Program-made: the position numbers and the translations under genes
From: an uncultured Planctomycetia bacterium
GTDB taxonomy: Bacteria; Omnitrophota; Gorgyraeia; VGKH01; JBHPFN01
NCBI GenBank assembly: GCA_964406665.1
Contig: CAYOSQ010000001.1
Location: 199,412 to 263,411 of the forward strand
DNA: 64,000 nucleotides
Reading direction: 5' to 3'
In this document: positions 7,332 to 20,226 of the stretch, in pieces
Layout of the letters: each line of letters begins with the position of its first letter
How positions within the stretch are numbered: the stretch's first letter is position 1
The notes under the pieces: model-generated
The model's input: the letters and a program-made list of their open reading frames with translations, nothing else
Database searches by the model: none
Told to the model about the DNA's origin: nothing

Positions 7332-8147
7332 ATGGGTTCAGAAAAAAAACAGATAATTGATTTAAGTCTTCCTATCGATGATACCTTGAAAGAAACCCAC
7401 GCGGCAAAAATTGATCGCATAAGCCACGAACAAGGTGTAGAGCATTTTAACTGGGTGCTTATGACTAAGCAGCCTAATGGTCAAGAGCGTTTTGATAAGG
7501 GAGAGAGAATCATTACTTCCGATGATGTTCCTGATGGACAGCTGCTTTCATTAGAGATTGTTCATTCTTCAGTGCATATGGGCACACATGTTGATGCGCC
7601 ATTTCATTATGGAAGCGATTGTGAAGGAAGGCCTTCTAAGTGCATAAATGATTTACCGCTTCAATGGTGTTATTCAGATGGAGTTGTATTGGATTTTACA
7701 AAAAAGAAACATCCTGAAACAATCAACAAGCAAGATGTCGTTAATGTTTTAAAGAAGATAAATTATAAATTAAAATCGTTGGATATCGTTTTGTTTTCAA
7801 CTGGTGCAGATAAAATGGTAGGAACCCCGGAATATATAAGTAAATATATCGGCGTTGAACCAGAAGCCGTTGAGTATTTATTAGATCAGGGTATCAAGAT
7901 GATGGGCGTTGATACCTTAGGGTTAGACAGGCCTTGCTTTGAAATGTTTAAAGAATTTTTAGAGACAAAAGATAAATCGCTTCTCTGGCCGTCGCATTTT
8001 CTAGGACGTAAGCGCGAATTTGCCCATATGGAACGCTTAGGCAACTTAGATAAAATACCTAAGCCGTTTGGGTTTAAGGTTTCCTGTTTTCCTGTTAAGG
8101 TAAGAAATGCTGGCGCGGGCTGGGCACGAGTGGTTGCAATAATATAA
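7332..8147 (+). CDS. cyclase family protein (PF04199; kynurenine-formamidase-like metal-dependent hydrolase/polyketide cyclase)
   Basis: Signature HMGTHVDAPFHY (HxGTHxDxPxH). Confidence 0.8.
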   Translation: MGSEKKQIIDLSLPIDDTLKETHAAKIDRISHEQGVEHFNWVLMTKQPNGQERFDKGERIITSDDVPDGQLLSLEIVHSSVHMGTHVDAPFHYGSDCEGRPSKCINDLPLQWCYSDGVVLDFTKKKHPETINKQDVVNVLKKINYKLKSLDIVLFSTGADKMVGTPEYISKYIGVEPEAVEYLLDQGIKMMGVDTLGLDRPCFEMFKEFLETKDKSLLWPSHFLGRKREFAHMERLGNLDKIPKPFGFKVSCFPVKVRNAGAGWARVVAII

Positions 8148-8166
8148 TAATTGATCGGAGGATAAA

Positions 8167-8607
8167 ATGGGACATACATGTAATTCTATAGCGATAAATG
8201 CACCCTATGATTTAGTTTTTGATATCTCTAACGATATCGAACGCTGGACAGAACTTTTTGGCGGAGAATATAAGGAAGCAAAGATTCTAAAGCGCGAAGA
8301 CAATAAACTTACATTTAAATTGACCGATGATGAAGATCGTTCCTGGCAGTCATATAGGATTTTAAATAAAGAACATAAATTTGCCTATGCGCAGAAACTA
8401 CCACCGGAGTTTCCTTTTAAATATATGAAGATAATTTGGCTGTATACGCCGTCTCCCGAGGGAATTATCATGACCTGGATTCAGCATTATACAATGGATG
8501 ATAAGGCAAAATTTACAGATGAACAGGTTGATGAGATGATTAATAAACACTCTAAAGAAAACCTTAATATCTTTAAAGATATTATTGAGAAAGAAGCAGT
8601 AAAATAA
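8167..8607 (+). CDS. SRPBCC superfamily protein (polyketide aromatase/cyclase-like, Polyketide_cyc2-type)
   Basis: 146 aa. N-terminus …SIAINAPYDLVFDISNDIERWTELFGG… is typical of SRPBCC cyclase/dehydrase proteins. RBS GGAGG upstream. Confidence 0.6.
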   Translation: MGHTCNSIAINAPYDLVFDISNDIERWTELFGGEYKEAKILKREDNKLTFKLTDDEDRSWQSYRILNKEHKFAYAQKLPPEFPFKYMKIIWLYTPSPEGIIMTWIQHYTMDDKAKFTDEQVDEMINKHSKENLNIFKDIIEKEAVK

Positions 8608-8618
8608 TAGAATAATTT

Positions 8619-9740
8619 ATGCATCAGAAAATAACATATTATATATTTTGTCTTATCGGCTTAATAATTGCTTTTAATGTGGGATCAATTTCTGCTATTG
8701 TGCCGTCTGTAGCTAGGGAATTAGGTCATCCAGAATTTGTTGCTGGTCGAATTATCTGGGCGTATATGTTGCCTTATGGGATATGTGCTTTATTTTATGG
8801 GCCACTTTCGAGAAAATTTAAGATTAAGAATATTCTTTTAGTATGTTTAAGTTTGTTTTCAGTTTTCAGTTTTCTCTCTGGCTTGGCCAACACTTTTAGC
8901 AGTCTGTTTACATTTCGTTTTATAGTTGGTATTTTTGCCTCAGCAATGACGCCGCTTGCGCTGCTTTATATATCTCATAAATTTAATTCAGAGAAAAGAG
9001 GTAAGGCTGTAGGGACATTTTTTAGTATAACATTTTTATCTTCTTTGACAGGTTTGTTTTTAAGCGGACTTATTAGTTGGAGATTTATATTTTTTATTCC
9101 TGCTGTAATAAGTGCTGCTACAGTTGTTTTAATATTCAAAGCTTTTCCTGAATTTACAATTGAAGTGGAAAGTTTAAAAAGCAGATACATTCAGGCATTA
9201 AAGACGCAGAAGATATTTCGCGTATTCCTGTATATATTTGCTATAAGCTTCTTTTATCATTTAGCTCGTGACTGGATGGGAGTTTATTTTGATAATAGAT
9301 ATGGCTTATCTCAGTTTGCAATTAGCTCTCTTTTGACTCTGGTAAGCTTTGCTGGGATATTCGGAGAATTTTTCGGAGGAATGTTCGCAGACAAAAAGGG
9401 AAGGATATTTGCGTTATCAGCAGGTGCCTTGTTGATGAGCATAGCATTGATTTTATTACCTGTAAGCGGTAAGATAATTTTTTTAGCAATTATTATGCTT
9501 ATTTGGGGGTTAGGTTGGACTATCAATCATTCCGGGCTTTCTACCTATCTTACTGATTTGCCTAAGCCATATTTACAGGAAGTGACGAGCTTAAACAGTT
9601 CAGTGCGCTTTATTTCCGGAGGTTTAGGTGCAGCATTAGGTGGATTATTAATGCAGAAAAGTTTTACTTTGACTTTCTCTGTGGTAGGTATAATTTTCTT
9701 GGCTTTATCTGTATTTTCTAGACAGATATTAAAGACATAA
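8619..9740 (+). CDS. MFS transporter (putative product exporter)
   Basis: 373 aa with ~12 predicted TM segments and an MFS-like loop motif (…GPLSRKFKIKN…). Confidence 0.7.
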   Translation: MHQKITYYIFCLIGLIIAFNVGSISAIVPSVARELGHPEFVAGRIIWAYMLPYGICALFYGPLSRKFKIKNILLVCLSLFSVFSFLSGLANTFSSLFTFRFIVGIFASAMTPLALLYISHKFNSEKRGKAVGTFFSITFLSSLTGLFLSGLISWRFIFFIPAVISAATVVLIFKAFPEFTIEVESLKSRYIQALKTQKIFRVFLYIFAISFFYHLARDWMGVYFDNRYGLSQFAISSLLTLVSFAGIFGEFFGGMFADKKGRIFALSAGALLMSIALILLPVSGKIIFLAIIMLIWGLGWTINHSGLSTYLTDLPKPYLQEVTSLNSSVRFISGGLGAALGGLLMQKSFTLTFSVVGIIFLALSVFSRQILKT

Positions 9741-9771
9741 ATTAGAACATAGATAAAAAATGGAGGTTGTA

Positions 9772-10545
9772 ATGAGTGATTTGAAAGGAAAGAGCGCCAT
9801 CATTACAGGTGCAAGCCGTGGCATTGGCAAAGCCATTGCTATGCGTCTGGCTAAAAGTGGCGTGAACATTGTTTTGGCTGCAAGGACAAAAGAAGTTTTA
9901 GATGAGACAACAGAGCTGATTAAAAAAGAAACTGGTGTTAAGGCTATAGGGATTCCCACGGACGTTAGCAAATTAGAGGATCTTAAGAATTTAGCTGATT
10001 CTGCAAAGAAGGAATTTAAAACAATTGATATCCTTATTAATAATGCCGGGGTTTCTAGTCAGTTTCCATTTGAAAAACAACCATTTGAAGATCTGGAGCG
10101 TTTAGCGCATACCAATTATTTAGGATATGTGCGCTTAATCCGTCTGCTTATTCCGGATATGATCGAGAGAAAAAGCGGGTCGATTATAAACATGGTATCA
10201 GGCTCTACTTTAGTAGATCCAGTACCTAGGACGTTTTTAACTTATAGTTCTCTTAAAGTTGGTTTACGGGCGTTTTCCAAGGGTTTATTCTGGGAGATGA
10301 GAGATCACGGGATAAAGGTAACTTCTATTTTACCCGGAGTTGCTGATACAGATTTAACCGGAAAGTTGCAGAATATTACGCAAGAGTCTAAGGAGCGTCT
10401 TATTACAGCAGATACTATTGTAGATACTGTAATGTTTGCTTTATCGGTTCCAGCCAATGCTTGTCCGATAGAACTGGCAGTGATTAATCAGCAGACACCT
10501 TGGGCAAAACCAGTAATTCCATTTGCACAAAAACATCCAAAATAA
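9772..10545 (+). CDS. SDR family oxidoreductase (FabG/ketoreductase-like)
   Basis: TGASRGIGKAIA Rossmann motif, NNAG, and YSSLK in the catalytic-YxxxK-like region. A GGAGG RBS 6 nt upstream supports this ATG over the ORF-track start at 9760. Confidence 0.8.
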   Translation: MSDLKGKSAIITGASRGIGKAIAMRLAKSGVNIVLAARTKEVLDETTELIKKETGVKAIGIPTDVSKLEDLKNLADSAKKEFKTIDILINNAGVSSQFPFEKQPFEDLERLAHTNYLGYVRLIRLLIPDMIERKSGSIINMVSGSTLVDPVPRTFLTYSSLKVGLRAFSKGLFWEMRDHGIKVTSILPGVADTDLTGKLQNITQESKERLITADTIVDTVMFALSVPANACPIELAVINQQTPWAKPVIPFAQKHPK

Positions 10546-10561
10546 AGGAAAGGAGTATCAA

Positions 10562-12022
10562 ATGAAAGTTTTATTCGTAACACCACAATTAGGTTCATGG
10601 GCAACACACGGTCATCACTTAGCACCAAATCAGCTGCACGCACAGTGGGCAGCGTTTATAAGGGAAAAAGGAACAGCAGAGGTTGAGGTATTGGATTGCA
10701 AGGCAATGGAGATTCCTAAAGATAAAATGGTTCAGATGATTAAAGAAAAGAATCCTGACTTTGTAGTTTTAGGAGATATGTTGCATTCATACGGAGGATA
10801 TGGAGTTCTTTGGCATTTCAACGAGTCAGCTAAGATGATTAAAGAAGCCAATCCGAACCAGACAATAATCGTAGGCGGCCTGTGGTATTCGGCAATGCCG
10901 ACGCAAACGCTGGAAGATAATCCAGCTATAGATTATGTAGTAATGGGTGAAGAAGAAGCATTCAATGATTTATTAATAGCAATTGAAGAGAATAAAAATC
11001 TAAAAGAAGTTGCTGGGGTAACTTCTAGAATAAATAATGAGATAGTAATGGGTCCACACAGGCCGCTATCGACGGATCTAGATAGCCTTCCTCTTCCGGC
11101 TTACGATTTGTTTCCCATGGAAAAATATGTCGGGCATACATATTGGATGCCGTTTGTCGAAATAGTTACATCCCGGGGATGTCCGTCGGCATGTACTTTT
11201 TGTTATGAATGGGATCAATATGATCCGCGACACCCGAATGATTTCTTAAAATGGCGGGCAAAATCTCCCAAGAGAGTTATCGAAGAGCTAGATCTTTTAC
11301 ATGAGAAGTTCGGTGTAAAGGTAGTAGTAATCCAAGATGATAATTTTAATGTTAATCCCGAGCGCGTAAAAGAGTTCTGTGAGTTAAAGTTAAAGAGCAA
11401 GAATCCAATTAAGTGGGTTTCTTTAGGACGTGCGGTTGATTGGGTTAACTGTGAGAGTATTTTGCCTCTTATGAAAGAAGCAGGTTTCTTCTTGGGAGTA
11501 TTTGGTATTGAAGTTACCACAGAAGAAGAACTTAAGAAAATCGCAAAAGGTATAACAATCAAACAGATAAGAAAGACGATTGATATATTAAGAGGAAATA
11601 ATATTGCAGTAGTTGCAGATATCATGGTAGGTTTTGATCATGATAGTGAACGTACTATCAAACAGAGATTCGAATTTACCGATGAAGTTGACCCGGATAT
11701 TCTCTGGGTTGGTTTTGTAACACCTGCGCCAAACTCTCCAATTTGGAAGAAAGGTATTACTAAAGGTTTAATTGATTATAAAGGAATTGATTTCAGACAG
11801 TGGGATTTTTTGCATCCGGTTATGCCTACAGATCATTTGTCTCCCGAGGATTTAGGAAGATTAGGTGCATGGTGCATGAGAGAGTTTTTCAGTAAGCCCG
11901 GTAGAATTCACAGAATTATGGAGAGTGATTTCGACCAGTTAGCAAAAGTATGTTTTCAGGATGTTATGAATAATGTACCTAAATGGGAAGCTGGAGCAAC
12001 TAAGGGAGAAGCACATATCTAA
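10562..12022 (+). CDS. B12-binding domain radical SAM protein
   Basis: An N-terminal cobalamin-binding-like domain is followed by the CxxxCxxC radical SAM motif (…RGCPSACTFCYE…). An AGGAG RBS precedes the ATG at 10562; the longer ORF-track start at 10523 has no RBS. Confidence 0.8.
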   Translation: MKVLFVTPQLGSWATHGHHLAPNQLHAQWAAFIREKGTAEVEVLDCKAMEIPKDKMVQMIKEKNPDFVVLGDMLHSYGGYGVLWHFNESAKMIKEANPNQTIIVGGLWYSAMPTQTLEDNPAIDYVVMGEEEAFNDLLIAIEENKNLKEVAGVTSRINNEIVMGPHRPLSTDLDSLPLPAYDLFPMEKYVGHTYWMPFVEIVTSRGCPSACTFCYEWDQYDPRHPNDFLKWRAKSPKRVIEELDLLHEKFGVKVVVIQDDNFNVNPERVKEFCELKLKSKNPIKWVSLGRAVDWVNCESILPLMKEAGFFLGVFGIEVTTEEELKKIAKGITIKQIRKTIDILRGNNIAVVADIMVGFDHDSERTIKQRFEFTDEVDPDILWVGFVTPAPNSPIWKKGITKGLIDYKGIDFRQWDFLHPVMPTDHLSPEDLGRLGAWCMREFFSKPGRIHRIMESDFDQLAKVCFQDVMNNVPKWEAGATKGEAHI

Positions 12023-12023
12023 A

Positions 12024-12962
12024 ATGAAAATCTGGGATAGCCATAATCATTGGATGCCGCCGGAGGTGGCAGAAAATACTACTTTTTTTAAGGTGCATTG
12101 GTCTGATAGCGACGCATTGCTGAAAGCTTTAGATAGTGCACAGATTGAAAAGGCAGTATTGTTATATCCTACATCTGATGCACATTTAAATATGGGAGGA
12201 TGGGCAGATGTCTGTTCTGTCTATAATCAGGAAGTTGCCAAAAAGGTAAAGCAGCATCCTGATAGGTTTATCGGAGCAGGAATTCTTCCTGTTGATTCTC
12301 CTGATAAGATGGTTGATGAGGTAGTTAGAATTAAAGAATTAGGTTTATCAGCTTTATCGTTAGCATCAAGCTATGACGGTAAGTTTCTTGATGATGAAAT
12401 GTTCTTAGGTGTATTTGAGATGGCAGAAAAACAAGGACTTCCTGTATTTGTACATTCACAGATTATGAATCCTATTGGTTTTGAGAGAGTGAAAGATCCT
12501 CTTTTGATGCCGGTTTTAGAGTATGTTTTTGACGTAACTATGTGCGCAGGTAAACTTATGATGGAAGGAGTTTTTGCAAGGTTTCCTAAGCTTAAGTTTG
12601 TGTTTGCGCATTTTGCCGGAATAATGCCGTTTGTAGGTGATAGGTTTGATGCTACATATTCTATGTTGCGTACCAGAAATATCGTAAAAGATTTAGGAGC
12701 GCAACCAACAGAGATATTAAAGAATATTTTTGTAGATGCAAGTGGAACAAAATCTAAAGCTATGCTTAATATGGCGCTGGAATTTTTCGGTCCCACAAGA
12801 ATCATCTGGGGATCAGATTTTCCTGCAAAGCGTGATTTAGCCGAAAGTATAAATACGGTTAAGGCTTTAGATATTAAAGATAAATCAAAACAGGCAATTT
12901 TATCAGAGAATATTAAATCGATTTTCAAACGAGACAACAACTTACGGAATGCAATGACGTAA
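12024..12962 (+). CDS. amidohydrolase-2 (PF04909, ACMSD/metal-dependent hydrolase or decarboxylase) family protein
   Basis: N-terminal …KIWDSHNHWMPPE… (HxH metal motif). The ~310-aa size suits a TIM-barrel fold. The ATG at 12024 lies just after the rSAM stop. Confidence 0.65.
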   Translation: MKIWDSHNHWMPPEVAENTTFFKVHWSDSDALLKALDSAQIEKAVLLYPTSDAHLNMGGWADVCSVYNQEVAKKVKQHPDRFIGAGILPVDSPDKMVDEVVRIKELGLSALSLASSYDGKFLDDEMFLGVFEMAEKQGLPVFVHSQIMNPIGFERVKDPLLMPVLEYVFDVTMCAGKLMMEGVFARFPKLKFVFAHFAGIMPFVGDRFDATYSMLRTRNIVKDLGAQPTEILKNIFVDASGTKSKAMLNMALEFFGPTRIIWGSDFPAKRDLAESINTVKALDIKDKSKQAILSENIKSIFKRDNNLRNAMT

Positions 12963-12980
12963 GTTATAGTGTCGAGTTAG

Positions 12981-13034
12981 TCCCGCCCTTTTGGTAAAGG
13001 TGGGAAATAAACATAGCCTGCCAAAAGGGCGGGA
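12981..13034. terminator. GC-rich 14-bp perfect inverted repeat (TCCCGCCCTTTTGG … CCAAAAGGGCGGGA), a putative bidirectional terminator or structural boundary element
   Basis: Seen directly in the sequence, right after the amidohydrolase stop and before the PNP gene. There is no strong U-tract on either side. Confidence 0.45.
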
Positions 13035-13105
13035 TTAATTCGGACAAATGATTTATGTCGGCAGGTGCCTCCATAAATCATGTCATCATTAAAAGGAGAA
13101 TAGGT

Positions 13106-13855
13106 ATGCCGATGCAAAAAGATATTCACTTAACTGGTAAAGATTTAGCTGGAATGGTTCAGCTGCGCCCGCAGGATATTGGAAAATATATTATTGTACC
13201 GGGGACACCTGATAGGCTCCAGGCGGCGATGAAGAAATTGCAAGACCCGCTTAAAAATTTTTCCTTTATGGAACACACTATGTATACAGGAGCAATAGAT
13301 GGAATAAGGGTAAGTGCTTTAAATGGAGGAATGTTCTGCGCTAACACATCTATTACAACAGAAATTCTTTGTAATGTTGAAGCACAGAATGTTATTCGCT
13401 TAGGCTCTTGCGGTGCATTAAGAGAAGATATAAAAGTTGGAGATCTAATTTTAGTTACTGATTGTATCCGCGGTGACGGCGTAACGCCTTATTATGTTGA
13501 TAAGGATTTTAAAACCTCGGCTGATGAAAGTATCAACGAGGCTTTAGAGAAGGCAGCTAAAAAACTAGGCATAGCAATACACAAAGGTCCGGCTTGGACA
13601 ACAGATGCTCTGTTAAGAGAAACTAAAGAGATTGTAAATGCAAAAGCCGAAGAAGGTGCTATTGCAGTAGATATGGTTTCTTCTGCATTTCTTACAATTG
13701 CTCAGACCTATAAGGTGAAAGCAGCATCTATTTTAGCGGTAAGCGATAACCTTATGACCGGTGAAGTTGGTTTTGCTAATCCGATGTTTTATATGGCTCA
13801 ATCATCAATGATAAATGTAGCAACAGAAGCTATAAAAATATTAGAGGGAAAATGA
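13106..13855 (+). CDS. PNP/UDP-family nucleoside phosphorylase (PF01048; purine/MTA/5'-deoxyadenosine phosphorylase candidate)
   Basis: DeoD-like motifs …IVPGTPDRL… and …IRLGSCGAL…. An AAAGGAGAA RBS precedes the ATG at 13106. Confidence 0.75.
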   Translation: MPMQKDIHLTGKDLAGMVQLRPQDIGKYIIVPGTPDRLQAAMKKLQDPLKNFSFMEHTMYTGAIDGIRVSALNGGMFCANTSITTEILCNVEAQNVIRLGSCGALREDIKVGDLILVTDCIRGDGVTPYYVDKDFKTSADESINEALEKAAKKLGIAIHKGPAWTTDALLRETKEIVNAKAEEGAIAVDMVSSAFLTIAQTYKVKAASILAVSDNLMTGEVGFANPMFYMAQSSMINVATEAIKILEGK

Positions 13856-14802
13856 AAATTTCGCCACTGTTTTGGCCTGTCGAACTTAAAGGTAATACAA
13901 TATTTATCTTAGATGAAACATTGTTGCCTGAGAAGACAAAATATATTAAGGCTAAAACTTATCTGGATTGTTGTCGGGCTATACGTCAGATGAAGACTCG
14001 TGCAGTAGGGCAGGTTTCTATTGTTTTTTATATGTTTTTACTTGAGCTTAAGAATTGTAAGAGTTGTTCAAGGGAACATTTAAAGAAAAGGTTTAAAAAA
14101 ATTTCTCAAGAGATAGAATCATCGCGGCCGACATTCCCCTTTTATGTGTTTACTTCAATGGTTTTGGGCTGGTTGGAGTCAATGGAAGGCGATATATCAG
14201 AGCAGCTTGAGAAAAAGTTGCGCGGCTTTTTGGAATATCTCAAGGGAAGTCGTTTAAAAAGATCAGAAATCGTTGCCGGGTTAATTAAAAATAAAAGCAG
14301 AATTTTAACTCATTGCAACATAAGTGGAGAGCTCGTTGCCGTTGCTCAGGCATGCAAAAGATCAAAGAAGCAGGTTGAGTTTTTCGTAACCGAAACACGT
14401 CCATATCTTCAAGGCTCTCGGCTTACGGCTTGGGAATTAAAAAAATCTGGTTTTAAAGTAACAGTTGTACCTGATAGCTGTGTTGCTCAGATTTTTAGCA
14501 AAGATTTAGTGGATTTGGTTTTAGTTGGTTCAGATAGATCTACTTCTGACAAAGCAATTATCAATAAAATTGGAACTTATCAAATTGCCAGTTTAGCCAA
14601 AGAGTTCAAGGTTCCTTTTTATGCGCTTATTCAATTACAATCAGCAAATACGCACAGTAAAAATGTTGCTATAGAAGAGCGCCCAAGTGAAGAGATCTTA
14701 AAATTTAACGGTAAAGACATTGTTCCCAAAGGAGTAAAGGGGTATTATCCAGCATTTGATATAACTCCAAAAGAATTGGTTGTCCAACAGGTTCCACTAT
14801 AG
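13852..14802 (+). CDS. eIF-2B alpha/beta/delta family isomerase (MtnA-like 5-methylthioribose-1-P / 5-deoxyribose-1-P isomerase)
   Basis: The N-terminus (…WPVELKGNTIFILDETLLPEKTKYIK…) matches MtnA-type starts. The C-terminal half has …VTETRPYLQGSRLTAWEL…VTVVPDS…. Confidence 0.7.
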   Translation: MKISPLFWPVELKGNTIFILDETLLPEKTKYIKAKTYLDCCRAIRQMKTRAVGQVSIVFYMFLLELKNCKSCSREHLKKRFKKISQEIESSRPTFPFYVFTSMVLGWLESMEGDISEQLEKKLRGFLEYLKGSRLKRSEIVAGLIKNKSRILTHCNISGELVAVAQACKRSKKQVEFFVTETRPYLQGSRLTAWELKKSGFKVTVVPDSCVAQIFSKDLVDLVLVGSDRSTSDKAIINKIGTYQIASLAKEFKVPFYALIQLQSANTHSKNVAIEERPSEEILKFNGKDIVPKGVKGYYPAFDITPKELVVQQVPL

Positions 14803-14812
14803 AAGGAAAGCT

Positions 14813-15268
14813 ATGAAAAAATCTATACTTATTCACGGTTTGCCTAAAGATGATTTTTATCGAACCTTAAGCAAAAAAAATAGTTATATTGTTACAGAAT
14901 CCCGTCCGGATTTGACTGGGGCAAAGGTAGCTGCAAAAAAATTAGCGGATAAAAAACTTAATGTTACCTTAATCTGTGATAATATGGCTGCTTTTTGTAT
15001 GGCGCAGAATAAAATCAGCAAAATATATTTATTTTATGAAAAAAAAGACAAAAATAATTTATTATGTAAAGTAGGTTCTTTAGGTTTAGCAATTTTAGGA
15101 AAAAGGCATAAGGTTCCTGTTTATGCTTATGAGGGTAAGGCTTTGAGAAAGCGCGCTACAAAAAAAGAAATGATTTATCTAATGGGCAAACTCATTGCTC
15201 CCAAAAATGTTTCTGTTTATAAAGAATTAACAGATGAAGTCCCGGTAAAATTTATAAAAAATAAATAA
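14813..15268 (+). CDS. truncated eIF-2B/MtnA-like paralog (C-terminal-half-like domain only)
   Basis: 151 aa. …IVTESRPDLTGAKVAAKKLADKKLNVTLICDNMAAFCMAQ… parallels the …ETRP…G…TVVPDS… segment of the upstream isomerase. Confidence 0.5.
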   Translation: MKKSILIHGLPKDDFYRTLSKKNSYIVTESRPDLTGAKVAAKKLADKKLNVTLICDNMAAFCMAQNKISKIYLFYEKKDKNNLLCKVGSLGLAILGKRHKVPVYAYEGKALRKRATKKEMIYLMGKLIAPKNVSVYKELTDEVPVKFIKNK

Positions 15269-15284
15269 ACATAAGGAAATAATT

Positions 15285-16286
15285 ATGGCTGATAAAAAGA
15301 TAGAAATAATAAATCAATTAATTGAAATCGGCAGCATTCTTTATCAAAAAAATTTAGCTGTTGGTAGATCAGGAAATTTAAGTGCTAAACTTGATGATAA
15401 TAAAATATTGATCAGCGCTCAAGGTACTACTTTAGGATTTTTGAAAAAAGAAGACTTTCTTGTGGTTGATTTAGAAGGAAAACCAGAGGAGAAGTCAAAA
15501 AAATTTCCTTCTTCTGAGGTTCCGATTCATACAGAGATTTATAAGAATTTAAAAACCGGATTTGTTATTCATGCCCATCCGCCGATTACCAGTGCTTATT
15601 TTGCCGTAAATGATTTTTTGGAGCCGGTAACTTTTGAAACCAAGCTCTATTTAGGAAATGTCCCGGTGATTTATCAAGATACACCGGCAGTTACTAAGCT
15701 TACACCGGTAATTGAGGCTTTGAAGATTAGCAACATCGTAGTTTTAAAAAATCATGGCTCTATTTCTATTGCTAACAATTCTATTGATGCCTTGCTTTTA
15801 ATGGAGGAGTTGGAGGTCGCCAGTAATATGTCGTATATATTTTTGTTTCTATCCTCAAAAAGTTTAACTGGAGATAAATGTGTGCAGGAAGAAAAAAAGG
15901 TATCTGGAGAATCTTTCGAAATGTTTTCATCCCAGCACATACAAAGAATAGTAGATTTGGCTAATCAGGATCAATATATTAAGGAAAAAGGGGAAGAGCT
16001 AGATTTAACCACGCAGGTTGTTATAAAGCTGGATGAAGCAAATCTGGCGTATAAGTTTGTTTTCGAAAAGGGAAGTGTCAAGAAAATTGATAATGATTTT
16101 GACGCACCTTTTATTATTTCAGGGAAAGAAGCTATTTGGCGCTTGATCTTTGAAGGGAAGCTCGATCCTTTTGTTGCAACAACTCAGGGAAAGCTTAAAT
16201 TAAAGGGAGATTTTGGAAAAATTTCAAAATGGTATGCTCCATTTAACCGGCTGTTCATTATATTTAAGCAGGTGGGGATAAAATGA
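15285..16286 (+). CDS. class II aldolase/adducin-family protein fused to a C-terminal SCP2 sterol-carrier-like domain (MtnB/FucA/Ald2-like)
   Basis: Class II aldolase motifs …AVGRSGNLSAK…, …VIHAHPP…, …KNHGSIS…. The C-terminal ~100 aa (…FVATTQGKLKLKGDFGKISKW…) are SCP2-like. Confidence 0.7.
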   Translation: MADKKIEIINQLIEIGSILYQKNLAVGRSGNLSAKLDDNKILISAQGTTLGFLKKEDFLVVDLEGKPEEKSKKFPSSEVPIHTEIYKNLKTGFVIHAHPPITSAYFAVNDFLEPVTFETKLYLGNVPVIYQDTPAVTKLTPVIEALKISNIVVLKNHGSISIANNSIDALLLMEELEVASNMSYIFLFLSSKSLTGDKCVQEEKKVSGESFEMFSSQHIQRIVDLANQDQYIKEKGEELDLTTQVVIKLDEANLAYKFVFEKGSVKKIDNDFDAPFIISGKEAIWRLIFEGKLDPFVATTQGKLKLKGDFGKISKWYAPFNRLFIIFKQVGIK

Positions 16287-17779
16287 AAAAAGAAAACTAT
16301 AAGATGTTAATAAATGGAAGCTTTGTTGAGGCAGAATCAAAACAGACACTTTCTTCAGTTAATCCGTCAACGGGGCAGATTATAGCTGAGTTTCCTAAAG
16401 CAAGCATTAAGGATGTAAAAAAAGCCATTGCCGCTGCACGAGAGGCTTTTGATAATGGTGAGTGGCCTAAACTTTCTAATTATGAAAGAGGCCAATATCT
16501 TATTAAGATTGCTAATTTAATTAAAGAAAAAGCGCAGCATTTAGCAGAGATTGAGACAAAAGATTCAGGAAAGACGATAAAAGAAACTACTTTTATTGAT
16601 GTTCCAACAGCTGCAAATGTGTTTGAGTATTTTGCAACTTGTGCTGATCAATTTATGCGCGGTAAGACAATACCCGTTCCGGCTAATGAATTAAATTATA
16701 CTTTAAGAGAACCAGTAGGCGTAGTTGCTCAAATAATTCCTTGGAACTACCCTTTACTATTTCTTGCCTGGAAGATTGCTCCGGCAATAAGTGTGGGTAA
16801 CTGCGTAGTTTTAAAACCAGCAAGCCTTACTTCTTTAGCTGCTTTAGAATTGGCTAAGATAATGGATGAAGCTGGTTTACCAAAAGGTGTGGTGAATATT
16901 GTAACCGGCAGCGGCAGTGAAATAGGCAGTGAGCTTGCTAGCAACAAAGATGTTGATAAAGTAAGCCTCATAGGTTCAACTAGTACAGGTAAGAAAGTAA
17001 TGAAGCTTGCATCCGAGAATATCAAAAAGGTAGCACTTGAGCTGGGAGGGAAGTCAGCAAATATTATTTTTGATGATGCAGATATTGAAACTGCTGTGAA
17101 TGGAACTATGACGGCAATATTTATGAATCAAGGTCAGATGTGTACTGCCGGTTCTCGAGTTTTGGTCCATGAGAAAATTCATGATAAGTTTGTGAACCTT
17201 CTATTGGAAAAAGTAGCAAAACTAAAAATAGGAGATCCGCTTGAGCACGAGACAGATTTAGGGCCACTTTCTTCAGATAAGCAGAGGGATAAGGTAATAG
17301 AATCTATAGAGGCTGCAAAAAAAGAAGGGGCTAAGTTGGTTTTTGGAGGTAAAACCCCAAAGGATAGTAAATTAAAAGATGGATTTTATTTTGAGCCGAC
17401 AATATTTGATTCTGTAAAGAACAATATGGCCATTGCTCAAGAAGAGGTGTTTAGTCTTGTGCTATCAATAATTACTTTTTCGTCTTTGGAAGAAGCCGTA
17501 TCAATTGCTAATGATAGTAAATATGGACTTGCCGGGATTATCTGGACTAACGATGTGAAGAAGGCCCACGTGGTTGCATCCGGTCTTAAGGCAGGAACGA
17601 TCTGGGTTAATACTTACGGAGGTTTTCATGCACAGATGCCCTTTGGCGGTTACAAGCAAAGTGGATTTAGCAAAGAGTTAGGAGAAGAAGGGCTTCTTGA
17701 ATATACAAATCTTAAGGCTGTAAATATGGATCTTACTATTGATGGTATGCCTCTTGTTTGCCACTGGTTTAATAAATAG
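16283..17779 (+). CDS. NAD(P)+-dependent aldehyde dehydrogenase
   Basis: ALDH signatures …ELGGKSANIIF… and catalytic Cys in …GQMCTAGSR…. 498 aa. Confidence 0.9.
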   Translation: MKKENYKMLINGSFVEAESKQTLSSVNPSTGQIIAEFPKASIKDVKKAIAAAREAFDNGEWPKLSNYERGQYLIKIANLIKEKAQHLAEIETKDSGKTIKETTFIDVPTAANVFEYFATCADQFMRGKTIPVPANELNYTLREPVGVVAQIIPWNYPLLFLAWKIAPAISVGNCVVLKPASLTSLAALELAKIMDEAGLPKGVVNIVTGSGSEIGSELASNKDVDKVSLIGSTSTGKKVMKLASENIKKVALELGGKSANIIFDDADIETAVNGTMTAIFMNQGQMCTAGSRVLVHEKIHDKFVNLLLEKVAKLKIGDPLEHETDLGPLSSDKQRDKVIESIEAAKKEGAKLVFGGKTPKDSKLKDGFYFEPTIFDSVKNNMAIAQEEVFSLVLSIITFSSLEEAVSIANDSKYGLAGIIWTNDVKKAHVVASGLKAGTIWVNTYGGFHAQMPFGGYKQSGFSKELGEEGLLEYTNLKAVNMDLTIDGMPLVCHWFNK

Positions 17780-17819
17780 TTTTACATAATTAATTTAATT
17801 GTAAAAAAGCAGTTTTTAA

Positions 17820-19676
17820 ATGTCAGTTTTTATTTTAGGTATATCCGCATTTTATCATGATAGCGCTGCAGTGCTTATTCGCGATGGGGAAATAATTGCC
17901 GCCGCACAAGAGGAGCGTTTTACAAGAAAAAAACATGATCCTTCTTTTCCTAAGCAAGCAATTTCATATTGTTTGGAAAAATTTTCGATTGATATAGATC
18001 AGCTTAATCATATAGTTTTTTATGATAAGCCACTTATTAAATTCGAACGCCTGCTGGAAACATATTTATCTTATGCTCCTTGTGGAGTGAGATCTTTTAT
18101 TTCAGCAATGCCTATCTGGGTGAAAGAAAAACTTTTTTTGAAAGATTTGATTATAAAAGAACTTAAATCTTTATCTAAAAAAAGTCTACCTAAGAATTAT
18201 AGATTAAATATTCTATTTACCGAGCATCATGAATCGCATGCTGCCTCGGCTTTTTTTCCATCGCCTTTTGAAGAAGCCGCTATTATCACAATGGATGGAG
18301 TAGGGGAGTGGGCTACAACTAGTTATGGGGTTGGCTGGGGAAATAACATAGAACTCATTTCAGAAATTCACTTCCCCCACTCTTTAGGTCTTTTGTATTC
18401 TGCTTTTACACATTATACAGGTTTTAAAGTTAATTCAGCCGAGTATAAAGTGATGGGTTTAGCTCCTTATGGAGAGCCTAAATATGTTAAGACAATATTT
18501 GATAATTTAATTGATTTAAAAGAGGACGGTTCTTTTAGATTAAATATGGATTATTTTAATTATTGTACGGGATTATCTATGACTAACAAAAAGTTCCATA
18601 AATTATTTGGGGGACAGCCTCGCAATCCAAATGAACCGCTTGAGAAAAAACATATGGATTTAGCAAGATCGATTCAGGTTATTACAGAAGAAGTCGTAAT
18701 GGGGATAGCGAAAAATGTATATTCTCAAACCGGTAAAGAAAATTTATGTCTTGCCGGAGGAGTCGCACTTAATTGCGTATCAAACGGAAGGCTGTTACGC
18801 GAGGGACCGTTTAAGAATATTTGGGTTCAGCCTGCAGCGGGTGATGCCGGAGGAGCATTAGGTGCCGCACTAGATGTTTGGTATAGATACTTAGGCAATG
18901 AAAGAAATATTAGTACAGCAGAAGACTCAATGAAGGGTGCTTACTTAGGACCTTCTTTTGATAATAAAAGAATTGAGAATTTTTTATTAGAAAAAAACAT
19001 ACTGCATAAACAACTTGATACTGAAAATCTAGTAAAAGAGGTAGCCAATTTAATAGAAGAGGGAAAAATTATTGGCTGGTTTCAAGGTAGTATGGAGTTT
19101 GGTCCGAGAGCTTTAGGTTCACGTAGTATTATTGCTGACGCCCGTAAAGGAAATATGCAATCAGAGATAAATCTTAAGATAAAATACAGGGAGTCTTTTA
19201 GACCATTTGCTCCTAGTTTATTAGAAGAAGATAGAAAAGAGTACTTTGAAGCTAATCAGCCTAGCCCTTATATGCTTTTTGTTGATTTGGTTAAAGAAAA
19301 ACATAGAATTCATCAACAAGAAAACAACGTTAGTTTATCTTTAAAAGAAATAATAAATACTCCCAGATCGGACATCCCTGCAGTAACGCATGTTGATTAT
19401 TCTGCTCGATTTCATACGGTAAATGATAAGCAGAATAAATTGTTTTATAGATTACTTAAGGCCGTTAAAGCTAAGACTGGATGCAGCGTAATTATAAATA
19501 CATCTTTTAATGTACGCTCCGAGCCTATTGTATGTACACCTGAAGATGCATATAGATGTTTCATGAGAACAGAATTAGATTATTTAGTAATGGGAAATTT
19601 TGTTGTAGATAAACTTAAGCAGAACAAAAGTTCTGGGAATGATTACTGCAGAGAGAAGCAATTTAAAACAAATTAA
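17820..19676 (+). CDS. carbamoyltransferase (NodU/CmcH/HypF-like family)
   Basis: N-terminus MSVFILGISAFYHDSAAVLIRDGEIIAAAQEERFTRKKHD is characteristic of this family. 618 aa. Confidence 0.85.
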   Translation: MSVFILGISAFYHDSAAVLIRDGEIIAAAQEERFTRKKHDPSFPKQAISYCLEKFSIDIDQLNHIVFYDKPLIKFERLLETYLSYAPCGVRSFISAMPIWVKEKLFLKDLIIKELKSLSKKSLPKNYRLNILFTEHHESHAASAFFPSPFEEAAIITMDGVGEWATTSYGVGWGNNIELISEIHFPHSLGLLYSAFTHYTGFKVNSAEYKVMGLAPYGEPKYVKTIFDNLIDLKEDGSFRLNMDYFNYCTGLSMTNKKFHKLFGGQPRNPNEPLEKKHMDLARSIQVITEEVVMGIAKNVYSQTGKENLCLAGGVALNCVSNGRLLREGPFKNIWVQPAAGDAGGALGAALDVWYRYLGNERNISTAEDSMKGAYLGPSFDNKRIENFLLEKNILHKQLDTENLVKEVANLIEEGKIIGWFQGSMEFGPRALGSRSIIADARKGNMQSEINLKIKYRESFRPFAPSLLEEDRKEYFEANQPSPYMLFVDLVKEKHRIHQQENNVSLSLKEIINTPRSDIPAVTHVDYSARFHTVNDKQNKLFYRLLKAVKAKTGCSVIINTSFNVRSEPIVCTPEDAYRCFMRTELDYLVMGNFVVDKLKQNKSSGNDYCREKQFKTN

Positions 19677-20066
19677 ATGGCTATAAACAAAAAAGAACTA
19701 AAAAGATTTGGATTTATTCTTACAACCTCGCTTTCGATAATTAGCTTAATCCTTTTTGCCAAGAGTGGTCATCAACATGTTTGGATATTAGTGTTTGCAG
19801 CCATTGTTTTTTCTGCTGCATTAATAAAAGCAGAATTGCTGAGGCCATTTCATCTTATTTTAAATAAAATCGGCCATTTAATAGGAAAGATAAATGCAAC
19901 AGTAGTCTTAGGGTTATTTTTCTATACTATATTAACACCTATTAGTTTCATCTTAAAACTGCTAGGGAAGGATAGTTTGAATCGAAAGTTAAAAACGATT
20001 GATACATATTGGATTAAGCGAGATAAAAATCTATCTGATCCGAGAAGAATGGAAAGGCAATTTTAG
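19677..20066 (+). CDS. small membrane protein, SxtJ-like (carbamoyltransferase-associated)
   Basis: 129 aa with 2-3 TM helices. It is a conserved neighbour of NodU/SxtI-type carbamoyltransferases; the family call is from memory. Confidence 0.5.
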   Translation: MAINKKELKRFGFILTTSLSIISLILFAKSGHQHVWILVFAAIVFSAALIKAELLRPFHLILNKIGHLIGKINATVVLGLFFYTILTPISFILKLLGKDSLNRKLKTIDTYWIKRDKNLSDPRRMERQF

Positions 20067-20073
20067 GAGACCT

Positions 20074-20226
20074 ATGTTATCTTTTTTGAAAGAGCTTTGG
20101 GATTTTTTGAAGGATAGGAAAAAGTTTTGGCTGCTACCTATAATAATTATGTTACTTCTTTTAGGATTGCTTATAATATTTGTTCAAAGTTCAGCAGTAT
20201 CTCCGTTTATTTATACAATTTTTTAA
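20074..20226 (+). CDS. very small membrane protein (DUF5989/SxtK-like)
   Basis: 50 aa (MLSFLKELWDFLKDRKKFWLLPIIIMLLLLGLLIIFV…). An AGGAGA RBS 4-9 nt upstream supports the ATG at 20074; the ORF-track start at 19999 has no RBS. Confidence 0.5.
   Translation: MLSFLKELWDFLKDRKKFWLLPIIIMLLLLGLLIIFVQSSAVSPFIYTIF

What the first reader, a model, noticed from the sequence alone, without database searches (positions are those of the whole stretch)
13106..17779. DHAP-shunt-like 5'-deoxynucleoside salvage module placed right after the radical SAM gene
Five consecutive genes encode a PNP-family nucleoside phosphorylase, an MtnA/eIF2B-like sugar-1-phosphate isomerase, a truncated paralog of it, a class II (FucA/MtnB/Ald2-type) aldolase and an aldehyde dehydrogenase. 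This is the enzyme logic of the DHAP shunt: phosphorolysis of 5'-deoxyadenosine or MTA, isomerisation to the ribulose-1-P, aldol cleavage to DHAP plus an acetaldehyde derivative, and oxidation of the aldehyde. It would detoxify the 5'-dAdo by-product of radical SAM enzymes such as the one encoded 1 kb upstream. No MtnC/MtnD-type methionine-salvage genes are present.
Basis: partly seen in the sequence, partly recalled or inferred. Interest (0 to 1): 0.6.

Follow-up and report, generated by a model that had tools for sequence, protein, structure and literature searches.

The report
Nucleoside-salvage enzymes built into polyketide operon
The five genes really do form a chain that should split a SAM-derived nucleoside sugar into a glycolytic triose phosphate plus a two-carbon acid. 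They are not a free-standing clean-up kit, though: across the uncultured phylum Omnitrophota they sit inside a type II polyketide synthase operon, which hints at an untested link between SAM by-product recycling and polyketide synthesis.

Summary
Window 13106-17779 (+) encodes, in order, a PNP/UDP-family phosphorylase, an MtnA-like sugar-1-phosphate isomerase, a short non-catalytic IF-2B paralog, a class II (zinc) aldolase and a non-acylating aldehyde dehydrogenase.

The DHAP-shunt reading is partly supported. Catalytic residues are intact and the gene order recurs in over 100 related Omnitrophota loci. Three points change the picture:

- **Operon context.** The block is part of a ~17-gene operon: PadR, acyl-AMP ligase, ApbA, TIGR04076, KS-alpha, a cysteine-less CLF, ACP, two cyclases, MFS, KR, B12-radical SAM and Amidohydro_2. 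This holds in three different gene orders.
- **SCP2 fusion.** The aldolase always carries a C-terminal SCP2 (lipid-carrier) domain.
- **No curated membership.** No enzyme reaches a curated family cutoff. The phosphorylase is DeoD/Udp-like rather than MTAP-like and lacks the E-M-E ribose motif.

Some relatives add an LsrF-like thiolase plus a zinc alcohol dehydrogenase beside the aldolase. That pair would also yield DHAP plus a C2 thioester.

Best reading (confidence 0.45): a DHAP-shunt variant whose C2 product is recaptured by ALDH and the ligase for the operon's polyketide pathway. Substrate identity is unproven. It is a new variant of a known kind.

The parts
454..1008 (+). PadR-family regulator at the head of the operon (context)
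   Evidence: NCBIfam PadR 41 bits. A PadR gene also precedes the AMP-ligase in type C locus L169. The best promoter-like site, 1048-1075, lies just downstream (the promoter scan as a whole is not above chance).
1127..2641 (+). Acyl-AMP/CoA ligase. Proposed to re-activate the acid made by the ALDH, or to load the PKS starter.
   Evidence: Pfam AMP-binding E=1e-83. Nearest solved relatives are 4-coumarate/feruloyl/fatty-acyl-CoA ligases at 213 bits, not Acs-type. In type A loci it directly follows the ALDH (40/63); in type C it directly precedes PNP.
2941..4576 (+). ApbA/ketopantoate-reductase-like oxidoreductase (2941-3969) and a tandem TIGR04076-family protein (3962-4576)
   Evidence: Both are conserved upstream of KS-alpha in related loci.
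4580..7328 (+). Minimal type II PKS: KS-alpha (4580-5848), Cys-less CLF-like KS-beta (5845-7089), ACP (7086-7328)
   Evidence: KS-alpha scores 399 bits to actinorhodin KS 1TQY_A, with the active-site Cys in STGCTAG. KS-beta has Arg/Lys in place of the Cys in 42/42 homologs. The ACP reading frame was found and has a PP-binding hit in L001.
7332..10545 (+). PF04199 cyclase (7332-8147), SRPBCC polyketide cyclase (8167-8607), MFS transporter (8619-9740), SDR ketoreductase (9760-10545)
   Evidence: Pfam hits. Conserved order.
10562..12022 (+). B12-binding (class B) radical SAM enzyme, the presumed source of 5'-deoxyadenosine (plus SAH)
   Evidence: Pfam Radical_SAM plus B12-binding. The CxxxCxxC motif is in SRGCPSACTFC. 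BchE model 209 bits and HpnJ 152 bits, both below cutoff. In the operon in 41/43 loci.
12024..12962 (+). Amidohydro_2 metal hydrolase/decarboxylase, the last gene of the PKS half
   Evidence: Pfam E=2e-25. Present upstream of the module in 52/56 loci. Used as the anchor for the reciprocal scan.
12972..13040 (+). Very stable hairpin in the 143-nt gap between Amidohydro_2 and PNP
   Evidence: The 143-nt intergenic RNA folds at -62.3 kcal/mol, z = -9.0. The perfect 13-nt arms occur only here in the window. It is not followed by a T-run and is absent in L087, where the genes abut.
13106..13855 (+). PNP/UDP-family nucleoside phosphorylase (DeoD/Udp-like)
   Evidence: Pfam E=1e-37. NCBIfam Udp 118 and DeoD 111 bits, both below cutoff; MTAP 24 bits. 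Best PDB matches are S. pyogenes Udp 3QPB (101 bits) and B. anthracis/B. cereus PNP (88 bits). Conserved across 58 family members: the phosphate-site motifs PG..DR and R(I/L)G(S/T)CG, and the purine-type Asp (SDN). The family has D-M-V where relatives have E-M-E.
13852..14802 (+). MtnA-like sugar-1-phosphate isomerase
   Evidence: Pfam IF-2B E=3e-50. NCBIfam MtnA models 222/201/185 bits, just below cutoffs 271/279/185.85; R15P isomerase 122 bits. T. maritima MtnA 1T9K scores 155 bits, with the THCN Cys and VG(S/A)D Asp aligned. A 7-aa deletion follows THCN.
14813..15268 (+). Short IF-2B paralog (C-terminal domain only), non-catalytic
   Evidence: Pfam IF-2B E=9e-17 over profile positions 131-269. 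It lacks the catalytic Cys region, and the Asp column is not Asp. Only 4 relatives were found among 5.8 billion proteins, but it is kept in L087 (71% id) and in type C loci (29-32% id).
15285..16286 (+). Class II (zinc) aldolase domain (residues ~1-190) fused to an SCP2 lipid-carrier domain (~210-333)
   Evidence: Pfam Aldolase_II E=8e-33 plus SCP2 E=7e-7. Invariant G30-N31, E78, H96, H98 and H157 in 25 homologs. AF2 model pLDDT 85.6 with a disordered linker at 193-202. Foldseek gives FucA, aq_1979, YgbL and DrdA all near E~1e-11. A C-terminal-domain profile hits only SCP2 proteins in PDB. The fusion is kept in type C at 39% id.
16283..17779 (+). Non-acylating NAD(P)+ aldehyde dehydrogenase
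   Evidence: Pfam Aldedh E=4e-181. The catalytic ELGGKS Glu and QMCTAGS Cys are present (sequence). Nearest families are BADH, ALDH2 and hydroxymuconic-semialdehyde DH; none is specific. Downstream of the aldolase in 69/71 loci.
17820..20226 (+). Carbamoyltransferase (17820-19676), SxtJ (19677-20066) and DUF5989 (~20074-20226). A lineage-specific neighbour, probably not part of the module.
   Evidence: Pfam hits. Found only in the window strain and in L087 among about 170 loci.

Best explanation
The five genes are a variant of the DHAP shunt that is built into a type II polyketide synthase operon of Omnitrophota.

Proposed flow:
1. A SAM-derived 5'-deoxynucleoside is phosphorolysed by the DeoD/Udp-like phosphorylase to a 5-substituted ribose-1-phosphate. 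The most likely substrate is 5'-deoxyadenosine released by the operon's own B12-radical SAM enzyme, and possibly MTA.
2. The MtnA-like isomerase converts it to the ribulose-1-phosphate. In this lineage the isomerase is perhaps partnered with the short non-catalytic paralog.
3. The zinc aldolase splits it into DHAP plus a C2 aldehyde.
4. The aldehyde dehydrogenase oxidises the aldehyde to the acid.
5. The operon's acyl-AMP ligase turns the acid into a thioester. The two carbons then re-enter the operon's KS-alpha/CLF/ACP pathway, as an acetyl-type starter or building block, instead of being lost.

Shown: domain identities, intact catalytic residues, translational coupling, and conservation of the block inside the PKS operon in three gene orders.

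Inferred: the substrate, the direction of flow, the hand-over to the ligase and PKS, and any role of the SCP2 domain.
For: Domains and order.

Catalytic residues:
- The isomerase Cys (THCN) and Asp are conserved in 75 homologs.
- The aldolase zinc and acid-base residues E78/H96/H98/H157 and the phosphate-site G30-N31 and SSE are invariant. That they match the FucA set is my manual alignment to FucA recalled from memory.
- The phosphorylase phosphate site and purine-type Asp are conserved.
- The ALDH Cys and Glu are present.

Gene linkage:
- Overlapping stop/start codons at PNP-MtnA and aldolase-ALDH.
- Synteny counts: MtnA 68/74, PNP 55/66, ALDH 69/71, B12-rSAM 41/43, ACP 41/43, cyclase 42/43, KR 43/43.
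- A reciprocal Amidohydro_2-anchored metagenome scan recovers the same operon.
- The third architecture, AMP-ligase-PNP-MtnA-short IF2B-aldolase-ALDH-rSAM-...-KS-CLF-ACP-...-Amidohydro_2, keeps module and PKS together after a block transposition.
- The ligase is next to the module in types A and C.

Priming: the CLF lacks both the Cys and the Gln usually used for decarboxylative priming (Arg/Lys in 42/42), so an externally supplied starter is plausible.

Convergent route: an LsrF-equivalog thiolase (356 bits against a cutoff of 297) plus a zinc secondary-alcohol dehydrogenase sit beside the aldolase or ALDH in 15-17 loci, at two different positions. Oxidising C4 of 5-deoxyribulose-1-P would give LsrF's substrate, and thiolysis would give DHAP plus acetyl-CoA. 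That is a second route to the same end products.

Literature precedent:
- DHAP shunt (PMC10986504).
- Fluoroacetate route with phosphorylase, isomerase, aldolase and ALDH (PMC3999930, PMC6302742).
Against: - No enzyme of the module reaches a curated family cutoff.
- The phosphorylase is not MTAP-type (24 bits). It keeps an N-terminal His like the one that binds the 5'-OH in Udp/PNP (from memory). It has D-M-V instead of the ribose-binding E-M-E.
- The aldolase is no closer to the characterised 5-deoxyribulose-1-P aldolase DrdA (45 bits) than to FucA, aq_1979 or YgbL.
- The invariable SCP2 fusion is unexplained if the product is a C2 aldehyde.
- The ligase resembles 4CL/fatty-acyl ligases, not acetyl-CoA synthetase.
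- In about 11 loci a class IV aminotransferase replaces PNP.
- There is a variable seam between Amidohydro_2 and PNP: a hairpin here, and CrcB/DUF190 or unknown genes elsewhere.
- There are no biochemical or expression data.
Confidence: 0.45

Rival explanations
1. One reading: a self-contained DHAP shunt whose only job is to detoxify or salvage 5'-dAdo (and MTA) produced by radical SAM and other SAM enzymes. Co-location with the PKS genes would reflect the local need of the B12-radical SAM enzyme, and the C2 product would simply go to general metabolism.
For: The enzyme evidence is the same as for the best explanation. The radical SAM gene is always in the operon and is adjacent to the module in types B and C. 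A preprint reports a separate MTAP in 70-99% of class Gorgyraeia, so this operon could supply the only downstream isomerase and aldolase. That would also explain why the operon PNP is dispensable in some loci.
Against: It does not explain why a housekeeping function stays bound to a PKS operon through three rearrangements. It also does not explain the ligase travelling with the module, the SCP2 fusion, or the short paralog. Biosynthetic clusters with radical SAM genes do not normally carry their own shunt (own knowledge).
Confidence: 0.22
2. The module processes a bulky, hydrophobic 5'-substituted nucleoside, for example an adenosylated polyketide or lipid intermediate analogous to adenosylhopane or aminofutalosine. 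The SCP2 domain holds the tail. The aldolase releases DHAP plus a long aldehyde extended by two ribose carbons. ALDH and the 4CL/fatty-acyl-type ligase then make the acyl thioester that primes the KS/CLF.
For: The SCP2 domain is universal and strongly conserved. The ligase is nearest to 4CL/fatty-acyl-CoA ligases. The PNP shows weak similarity to HpnG (49 bits) and the radical SAM to HpnJ (152 bits). Both phosphorylase and isomerase have family-wide active-site-region changes.
Against: No MqnE/HpnH-type adenosylating radical SAM enzyme is in the operon. B12-class enzymes are not known to adenosylate (own knowledge). SCP2 folds also occur as purely structural domains. The LsrF-like/ADH accessory pair fits a small methyl-ketone-type substrate better.
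Confidence: 0.13
3. Ordinary nucleoside-ribose catabolism by a scavenging nanobacterium: nucleoside to ribose-1-P, to ribulose-1-P, to DHAP plus glycolaldehyde, to glycolate. This would be a shortcut version of the haloarchaeal ribulose-1-phosphate aldolase route.
For: The phosphorylase is DeoD/Udp-like with the conserved N-terminal His. The haloarchaeal Ru1P-aldolase model scores 69 bits. The pathway precedent is PMC9700705.
Against: The isomerase scores much better with MtnA models (222 bits) than with the R15P isomerase model (122 bits). No direct ribose-1-P isomerase of this family is established. A catabolic route has no reason to be locked into a PKS operon. There is no R1P kinase or RuBP phosphatase.
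Confidence: 0.1
4. The class II aldolase-fold protein is not an aldolase but a decarboxylase, epimerase or MtnB-type dehydratase. The block would then tailor a phosphorylated or polyketide-derived intermediate unrelated to nucleoside cleavage.
For: The fold family includes OtnC/YgbL decarboxylases (84 bits), AraD and MtnB (63 bits), with similar scores. An invariant Glu118 sits where FucA has Tyr113 (manual alignment, FucA sequence from memory).
Against: An aldehyde dehydrogenase follows in 69/71 loci and is translationally coupled here, which argues for an aldehyde product. The FucA-type Glu (E78) and the DHAP-phosphate-site residues are invariant. The MtnA-aldolase adjacency is near-universal.
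Confidence: 0.05

Closest known systems
DHAP shunt (MtnP or MtnN+MtnK, MtnA, Ald2) of Rhodospirillum rubrum and extraintestinal pathogenic E. coli
   Same: The same three-step logic: nucleoside to 5-substituted ribose-1-P, to ribulose-1-P, to DHAP plus aldehyde. Isomerase and class II aldolase genes are adjacent (PMC10986504).
   Different: The phosphorylase is DeoD/Udp-like, not MTAP. The isomerase and aldolase are below curated cutoffs. The aldolase is fused to SCP2. An ALDH and an acyl-AMP ligase follow. There is an extra non-catalytic IF-2B paralog. The whole block is embedded in a type II PKS operon rather than standing alone.
DrdK/DrdI/DrdA 5-deoxyribose disposal of Bacillus thuringiensis (DrdA = PDB 6BTD/6BTG)
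   Same: An MtnA-type isomerase plus a class II aldolase give DHAP plus acetaldehyde.
   Different: The entry step uses a kinase, not a phosphorylase. DrdA scores only 45 bits (E=8e-11), no better than FucA homologs. It has no SCP2, ALDH or PKS context.
Fluoroacetate pathway of Streptomyces cattleya / Nocardia brasiliensis (FlB phosphorylase, 5-FDRP isomerase, fuculose-type aldolase, fluoroacetaldehyde dehydrogenase)
   Same: The identical four-enzyme order, including the aldehyde dehydrogenase that makes a C2 acid from a SAM-derived 5'-substituted adenosine (PMC3999930; PMC6302742).
   Different: No fluorinase/DUF62 gene is in the window or among the called genes of the loci inspected. CrcB/DUF190 genes occur in 21 related loci, but without a fluoride riboswitch.
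Salinosporamide chloroethylmalonyl-CoA pathway (SalL, SalT phosphorylase and others)
   Same: It is a precedent for a SAM-derived 5'-substituted deoxyadenosine being converted, via a nucleoside phosphorylase, into a PKS building block (own knowledge; mentioned in PMC6302742).
   Different: That route goes through the free sugar, a lactone and a dihydroxy-acid dehydratase, not an isomerase and aldolase. It feeds a type I PKS extender unit, not a type II system.
Haloarchaeal non-carboxylating pentose bisphosphate pathway (ribulose-1-phosphate aldolase)
   Same: A nucleoside phosphorylase plus a class II aldolase give DHAP plus a C2 aldehyde (PMC9700705).
   Different: It needs an R1P kinase, an R15P isomerase and a RuBP phosphatase, none of which is present here. 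The aldehyde is reduced there, not oxidised.
LsrF thiolase of AI-2 processing
   Same: An equivalog-level LsrF homolog sits next to the aldolase in 15-17 related loci. The LsrF reaction also yields DHAP plus acetyl-CoA from a phosphorylated C5 diketone.
   Different: It is not present in this window. There is no LsrK, LsrG or Lsr transporter. The link to 5-deoxyribulose-1-P through the neighbouring zinc dehydrogenase is my inference.

Membership tests
DHAP shunt | Entry enzyme is an MTA/5'-dAdo phosphorylase (MtnP/MTAP family), or MtnN plus MtnK | tested here: not met
   TIGR01694 MTAP scores 24 bits against a cutoff of 275. The best models are Udp (118) and DeoD (111), both below cutoff. There is no MtnN or MtnK in the window.
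DHAP shunt | MtnA isomerase with catalytic Cys and Asp | tested here: inconclusive
   The Cys (THCN) and Asp are conserved in 75 homologs. However, scores are 222/201/185.1 bits against cutoffs of 271/279/185.85, and the family has a 7-aa deletion next to the Cys.
DHAP shunt | Ald2/DrdA-type class II aldolase cleaving 5-deoxy- or 5-methylthio-ribulose-1-P | tested here: inconclusive
   The zinc His triad, the Glu and the DHAP phosphate site are invariant. There is no specific affinity to DrdA. The nearest named model is methanogen FucA/PRK08660, below cutoff.
DHAP shunt | Activity on 5'-dAdo or MTA-derived sugar phosphates | not testable with these tools
   This needs enzyme assays.
Canonical methionine salvage pathway | MtnB dehydratase followed by MtnC/MtnW-X and MtnD | tested here: not met
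   No enolase-phosphatase, RLP or ARD/cupin dioxygenase is among the ORFs of at least 110 aa (plus DUF5989) that were put through Pfam; seven overlapping shadow ORFs and 27464-27808 were not scanned. The MtnB models match only the N-terminal half, at 60-63 bits.
Fluorometabolite (fluoroacetate) pathway | SAM-dependent fluorinase/chlorinase (DUF62) | tested here: not met
   There is no PF01887-type hit in any window ORF scanned, nor in the precomputed Pfam lists of 10 related loci.
Type II polyketide synthase | KS-alpha with active-site Cys paired with a Cys-less KS-beta/CLF and a discrete ACP | tested here: met
   KS-alpha scores 399 bits to act KS, with Cys kept in 26/27 homologs. KS-beta scores 249 bits to act CLF, with Cys replaced by Arg/Lys in 42/42 (not the usual Gln). 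The ACP is at 7086-7328.
SCP2 sterol/lipid-carrier domain | SCP2 fold recognisable by profile | tested here: met
   Pfam PF02036 scores 30 bits against a cutoff of 21.3. A profile of the C-terminal domain hits only SCP2 proteins in PDB, the best being 2CX7 at E=1e-4. Lipid binding itself was not tested.
Haloarchaeal non-carboxylating pentose bisphosphate pathway | R1P kinase, R15P isomerase and RuBP phosphatase upstream of the Ru1P aldolase | tested here: not met
   None of these is in the operon. The R15P isomerase model scores 122 bits against a cutoff of 314, and the Ru1P aldolase model 69 bits against 300.

The most novel reading that the evidence does not exclude
The module is a dedicated starter-unit factory for a type II PKS. 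It would convert a SAM-derived 5'-substituted adenosine, possibly one carrying a hydrophobic group held by the SCP2 domain, into an acyl thioester via ribulose-1-phosphate aldol cleavage. The Cys- and Gln-less CLF system would then be primed with carbons that originate from the ribose of SAM. This would be a new way of feeding polyketide synthesis, and a biosynthetic use of the DHAP shunt, conserved across a whole uncultured phylum.
Probability: 0.2. Interest if true: 0.85.

Novelty: new variant of a known kind. Interest (0 to 1): 0.62.

Why it matters
- **For SAM by-product metabolism.** If the reading is right, the fate of radical-SAM and SAM by-products in Omnitrophota is tied to a phylum-wide polyketide pathway rather than to housekeeping salvage. 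The DHAP shunt would have been extended here by an ALDH, a ligase, an SCP2 fusion and a pseudo-enzyme subunit. In some lineages it also gained an LsrF-type thiolytic branch giving DHAP plus acetyl-CoA.
- **For natural-product research.** It defines a compact, highly conserved type II PKS operon in uncultured, possibly host-dependent nanobacteria, with an unusual CLF and a candidate non-canonical priming route.
- **For annotation.** 'Uridine phosphorylase', 'eIF-2B' and 'fuculose aldolase' labels in these genomes are misleading.

Tried and rejected
- **Housekeeping nucleoside (deo-type) operon.** Rejected: there is no DeoB, DeoC or DeoA in the window, and the block always sits in a PKS operon.
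- **Canonical methionine salvage.** Rejected: no MtnC or MtnD, and the MtnB models match only partially.
- **Fluorometabolite pathway.** Considered because of the enzyme order and the CrcB/DUF190 genes in 21 loci. No fluorinase and no fluoride riboswitch were found, so it stays a low-probability curiosity.
- **Truncated IF-2B as a decaying pseudogene.** Rejected: it is conserved at 71%, 62% and 39% identity, is present in type C at about 30% identity, and keeps its motifs.
- **PKS half existing without the module.** This first seemed true for loci ending at an rRNA operon. Radical-SAM-anchored look-ups then showed the module upstream in that architecture.
- **Classifying the aldolase by structure search.** Foldseek could not separate FucA, DrdA, YgbL and AraD.
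- **Riboswitch or cis-regulatory clue.** Rfam found only two tRNAs in the window.
- **Promoter/terminator scan.** No better than shuffled sequence.
- **Literature.** No paper describes this module. Only generic KS-CLF catalogue hits and 'ladderane' BGC calls exist for Omnitrophota. TIGR04076 was uninformative, and the MtnA structure paper was not retrievable.
- **Not possible.** I could not obtain E. coli/R. rubrum Ald2 sequences for a proper tree, inspect model coordinates for the SCP2/active-site geometry, or fetch whole genomes to count paralogs.

Full report
**Observation.** The window is low-GC (about 36%) and comes from a member of Candidatus Omnitrophota; the homologs of its proteins are so named. 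The five genes of the finding are present on the + strand as described:

- A PNP_UDP_1 phosphorylase at 13106-13855. The ORF opens at 13055, but ATG 13106 has an AGGAGA ribosome-binding site and gives the 249-aa length of homologs.
- An IF-2B/MtnA-like isomerase at 13852-14802.
- A half-length IF-2B paralog at 14813-15268.
- An Aldolase_II protein at 15285-16286.
- An aldehyde dehydrogenase at 16283-17779.

Two gene pairs overlap by four bases (PNP/MtnA and aldolase/ALDH). A profile of that domain hits only SCP2 proteins in PDB.

**Anatomy of the enzymes.**

*Isomerase.* It aligns over its full length with T. maritima MtnA (1T9K, 155 bits). It keeps the THCN cysteine and the VG(S/A)D aspartate, and both are conserved in 75 homologs. 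That these are the catalytic pair of B. subtilis MtnA is from memory. The family has a 7-residue deletion right after the cysteine, and its scores fall just short of the curated MtnA cutoffs (222 against 271, 185.1 against 185.85).

*Short paralog.* It covers only the C-terminal domain and lacks both catalytic residues. It has only four relatives among 5.8 billion proteins. It is nevertheless retained at 71%, 62% and 39% identity, and also at about 30% identity in a distant operon architecture. It is therefore a maintained non-catalytic subunit, not a remnant.

*Aldolase domain.* Its invariant residues are G30-N31, S(S/T)E78, H96, H98 and H157. By my manual alignment to E. coli FucA, recalled from memory, these are the FucA-type zinc and acid-base set. 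Neither sequence nor fold comparison places it closer to the 5-deoxyribulose-1-P aldolase DrdA than to FucA, aq_1979, YgbL or AraD. Its nearest stand-alone relatives are unclassified ~190-aa aldolases of the methanogen-FucA/PRK08660 type.

*Phosphorylase.* It is DeoD/Udp-like, not MTAP-like. It keeps the phosphate-binding Arg and Ser and the purine-type Asp. Across all 58 family members it has D-M-V where the PNP and Udp homologs aligned have E-M-E; that MTAN shares the motif is from memory.

*ALDH.* It has the catalytic Cys and Glu of non-acylating enzymes and no specific subfamily affiliation.

**Surroundings.** All genes from 454 to 20226 are co-directional and tightly spaced. Upstream of the module lie, in order:

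- PadR
- an acyl-AMP ligase
- an ApbA-type reductase
- a tandem TIGR04076 protein
- two ketosynthases
- an ACP
- a PF04199 cyclase
- an SRPBCC polyketide cyclase
- an MFS transporter
- a ketoreductase
- a B12-binding radical SAM enzyme
- an Amidohydro_2 protein

The first ketosynthase is a bona fide type II PKS KS-alpha, scoring 399 bits to actinorhodin KS and 396 bits to AntD. The second lacks the active-site cysteine, with Arg or Lys in 42 of 42 homologs, and so is CLF-like. The rest of the window is housekeeping and holds no MtnC, MtnD, MtnK, MtnN or fluorinase genes.

**Comparative genomics.** A scan of one genome per species found 216 genomes encoding the SCP2-fused aldolase; the 80 loci kept are all Omnitrophota or mislabelled relatives. 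Mapping the window proteins onto these loci gives a near-invariant order, called type A here:

- Type A: (ApbA, TIGR04076) KS-alpha, CLF, B12-rSAM, ACP, cyclase, SRPBCC, (MFS), KR, Amidohydro_2, PNP, MtnA, aldolase-SCP2, ALDH, AMP-ligase.

Counts are given.

- Type B (the window): the radical SAM gene sits after the KR, and the ligase is at the operon start.
- Type C: a reciprocal scan anchored on Amidohydro_2 recovered type A again, plus a set of loci ending at an rRNA operon. Look-ups anchored on their radical SAM gene showed the order (PadR) AMP-ligase, PNP, MtnA, short IF-2B, aldolase-SCP2, ALDH, B12-rSAM, ApbA, KS-alpha, CLF, ACP, cyclase, SRPBCC, MFS, KR, Amidohydro_2.

The nucleoside module has therefore moved as a block and still stays in the same operon as the PKS and the radical SAM gene. 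The ligase is adjacent to the module in two of the three orders. That argues for functional coupling rather than inherited neighbourhood.

**Variable parts.**

- In about 11 loci of the window-like order, the PNP slot holds a class IV aminotransferase.
- In 21 loci a CrcB/DUF190 pair is inserted at the Amidohydro_2|PNP seam, without a fluoride riboswitch.
- In 15-17 loci an LsrF-equivalog thiolase (356 bits against a cutoff of 297) and a threonine-dehydrogenase-like zinc dehydrogenase lie either between the aldolase and ALDH or just after ALDH.

LsrF cleaves 3-hydroxy-2,4-pentanedione-5-phosphate with CoA into DHAP and acetyl-CoA (Marques et al. 2014, as cited in PMC7828210). Oxidising C4 of 5-deoxyribulose-1-phosphate gives that same carbon skeleton. 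The pair therefore looks like an oxidative-thiolytic alternative to aldolase plus ALDH plus ligase, with the same end products. This is my inference. It is the best sequence-level hint that the intermediate is a 1-phospho-ketopentose with a C5 methyl (or CH2-X) group, and that the pathway aims at a C2 thioester plus DHAP.

**Most likely mechanism.** The proposed sequence is:

1. Phosphorolysis of a SAM-derived 5'-deoxynucleoside.
2. Isomerisation to the ketose-1-phosphate.
3. Aldol cleavage to DHAP plus a C2 aldehyde.
4. Oxidation to the acid.
5. Ligase-dependent re-activation, feeding the operon's own KS/CLF/ACP system, whose CLF lacks the usual decarboxylative-priming residue.

Shown: domains, catalytic residues, coupling and synteny. 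Inferred: the substrate, the direction of flow and the hand-over to the ligase and PKS.

Against this stand the non-MTAP phosphorylase with an altered ribose site, sub-threshold family scores, a 4CL/fatty-acyl-type ligase, the PNP/aminotransferase swap, and above all the unexplained SCP2 fusion. Rivals are listed separately:

- pure detoxification
- processing of a bulky adenosylated intermediate
- plain ribose catabolism via ribulose-1-P
- a non-aldolase chemistry

**Comparison with known systems.** The module works like the DHAP shunt (PMC10986504). With its ALDH, it matches the fluoroacetate route step for step (PMC3999930, PMC6302742). It cannot be filed as a member of either: the MTAP-type entry enzyme and the fluorinase were tested and not found, and orthology of the isomerase and aldolase is inconclusive. 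Type II KS-CLF pairs from Ca. Omnitrophica have been catalogued (PMC10132072), and 'ladderane-type' BGC calls have been reported (PMC9902471). I found no description of the nucleoside module, the SCP2-aldolase, the short IF-2B paralog or the LsrF-like branch.

**Verdict.** All functional statements remain predictions.

Noticed in passing
L006:11013-12843, and 14-16 other loci (e.g. L013:1149-2974, L043:6769-8623, L081:12465-14332): An LsrF-equivalog thiolase plus a threonine-dehydrogenase-like zinc alcohol dehydrogenase are inserted next to the aldolase-SCP2 or ALDH, at two different positions. Together they could convert 5-deoxyribulose-1-P to DHAP plus acetyl-CoA, a possible undescribed branch of the DHAP shunt.
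   Followed up: partly
window 4580-7328 and homologs: This is a type II PKS conserved across Omnitrophota. Its CLF-like KS-beta has Arg/Lys at the active-site position in 42/42 homologs, instead of Cys or the usual Gln. The product is unknown.
   Followed up: partly
L028:7305-8111, also L012, L030, L033, L057, L059, L077, L083, L088: A class IV aminotransferase (BCAT/aminodeoxychorismate-lyase-like) occupies the slot of the phosphorylase between Amidohydro_2 and MtnA in a subset of operons.
   Followed up: partly
L006:7596-8313 and 20 other loci (e.g. L142:11420-12161): A CrcB fluoride-channel gene plus DUF190 are inserted between Amidohydro_2 and PNP. No fluoride riboswitch was detected in 7 of these loci.
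   Followed up: partly
window 12972-13040: An exceptionally stable hairpin (the 143-nt spacer folds at -62 kcal/mol, z = -9) sits at the seam between the PKS half and the nucleoside module. It is unique in the window and absent from the 70%-identity relative L087.
   Followed up: partly
window 13106-13855 and 57 homologs: The operon's phosphorylase family has D-M-V in place of the E-M-E ribose-binding motif found in the PNP and Udp homologs it was aligned with, while keeping the phosphate site and the purine-type Asp.
   Followed up: partly
L113:11101-16399; L169:4107-4405 and 7033-7649: Type C operons end directly at a 16S-tRNA-tRNA-23S-5S rRNA operon. One carries toxin-antitoxin-like insertions (HicB-like, nucleotidyltransferase/HEPN) between the operon genes.
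   Followed up: no
window 17820-20226; L087:12531-16531: A carbamoyltransferase-SxtJ-DUF5989 triad follows the ALDH only in this lineage. In L087 a second B12-radical SAM gene sits between SxtJ and DUF5989.
   Followed up: no
window 37172-40309 (- strand): A Hint/pretoxin-HINT domain protein lies next to a 664-aa ORF with no Pfam match. This may be a polymorphic-toxin-type locus.
   Followed up: no
window 48324-48839: A small 'adenosine-specific kinase' family (PF04008) gene sits among housekeeping genes, 30 kb from the module.
   Followed up: no
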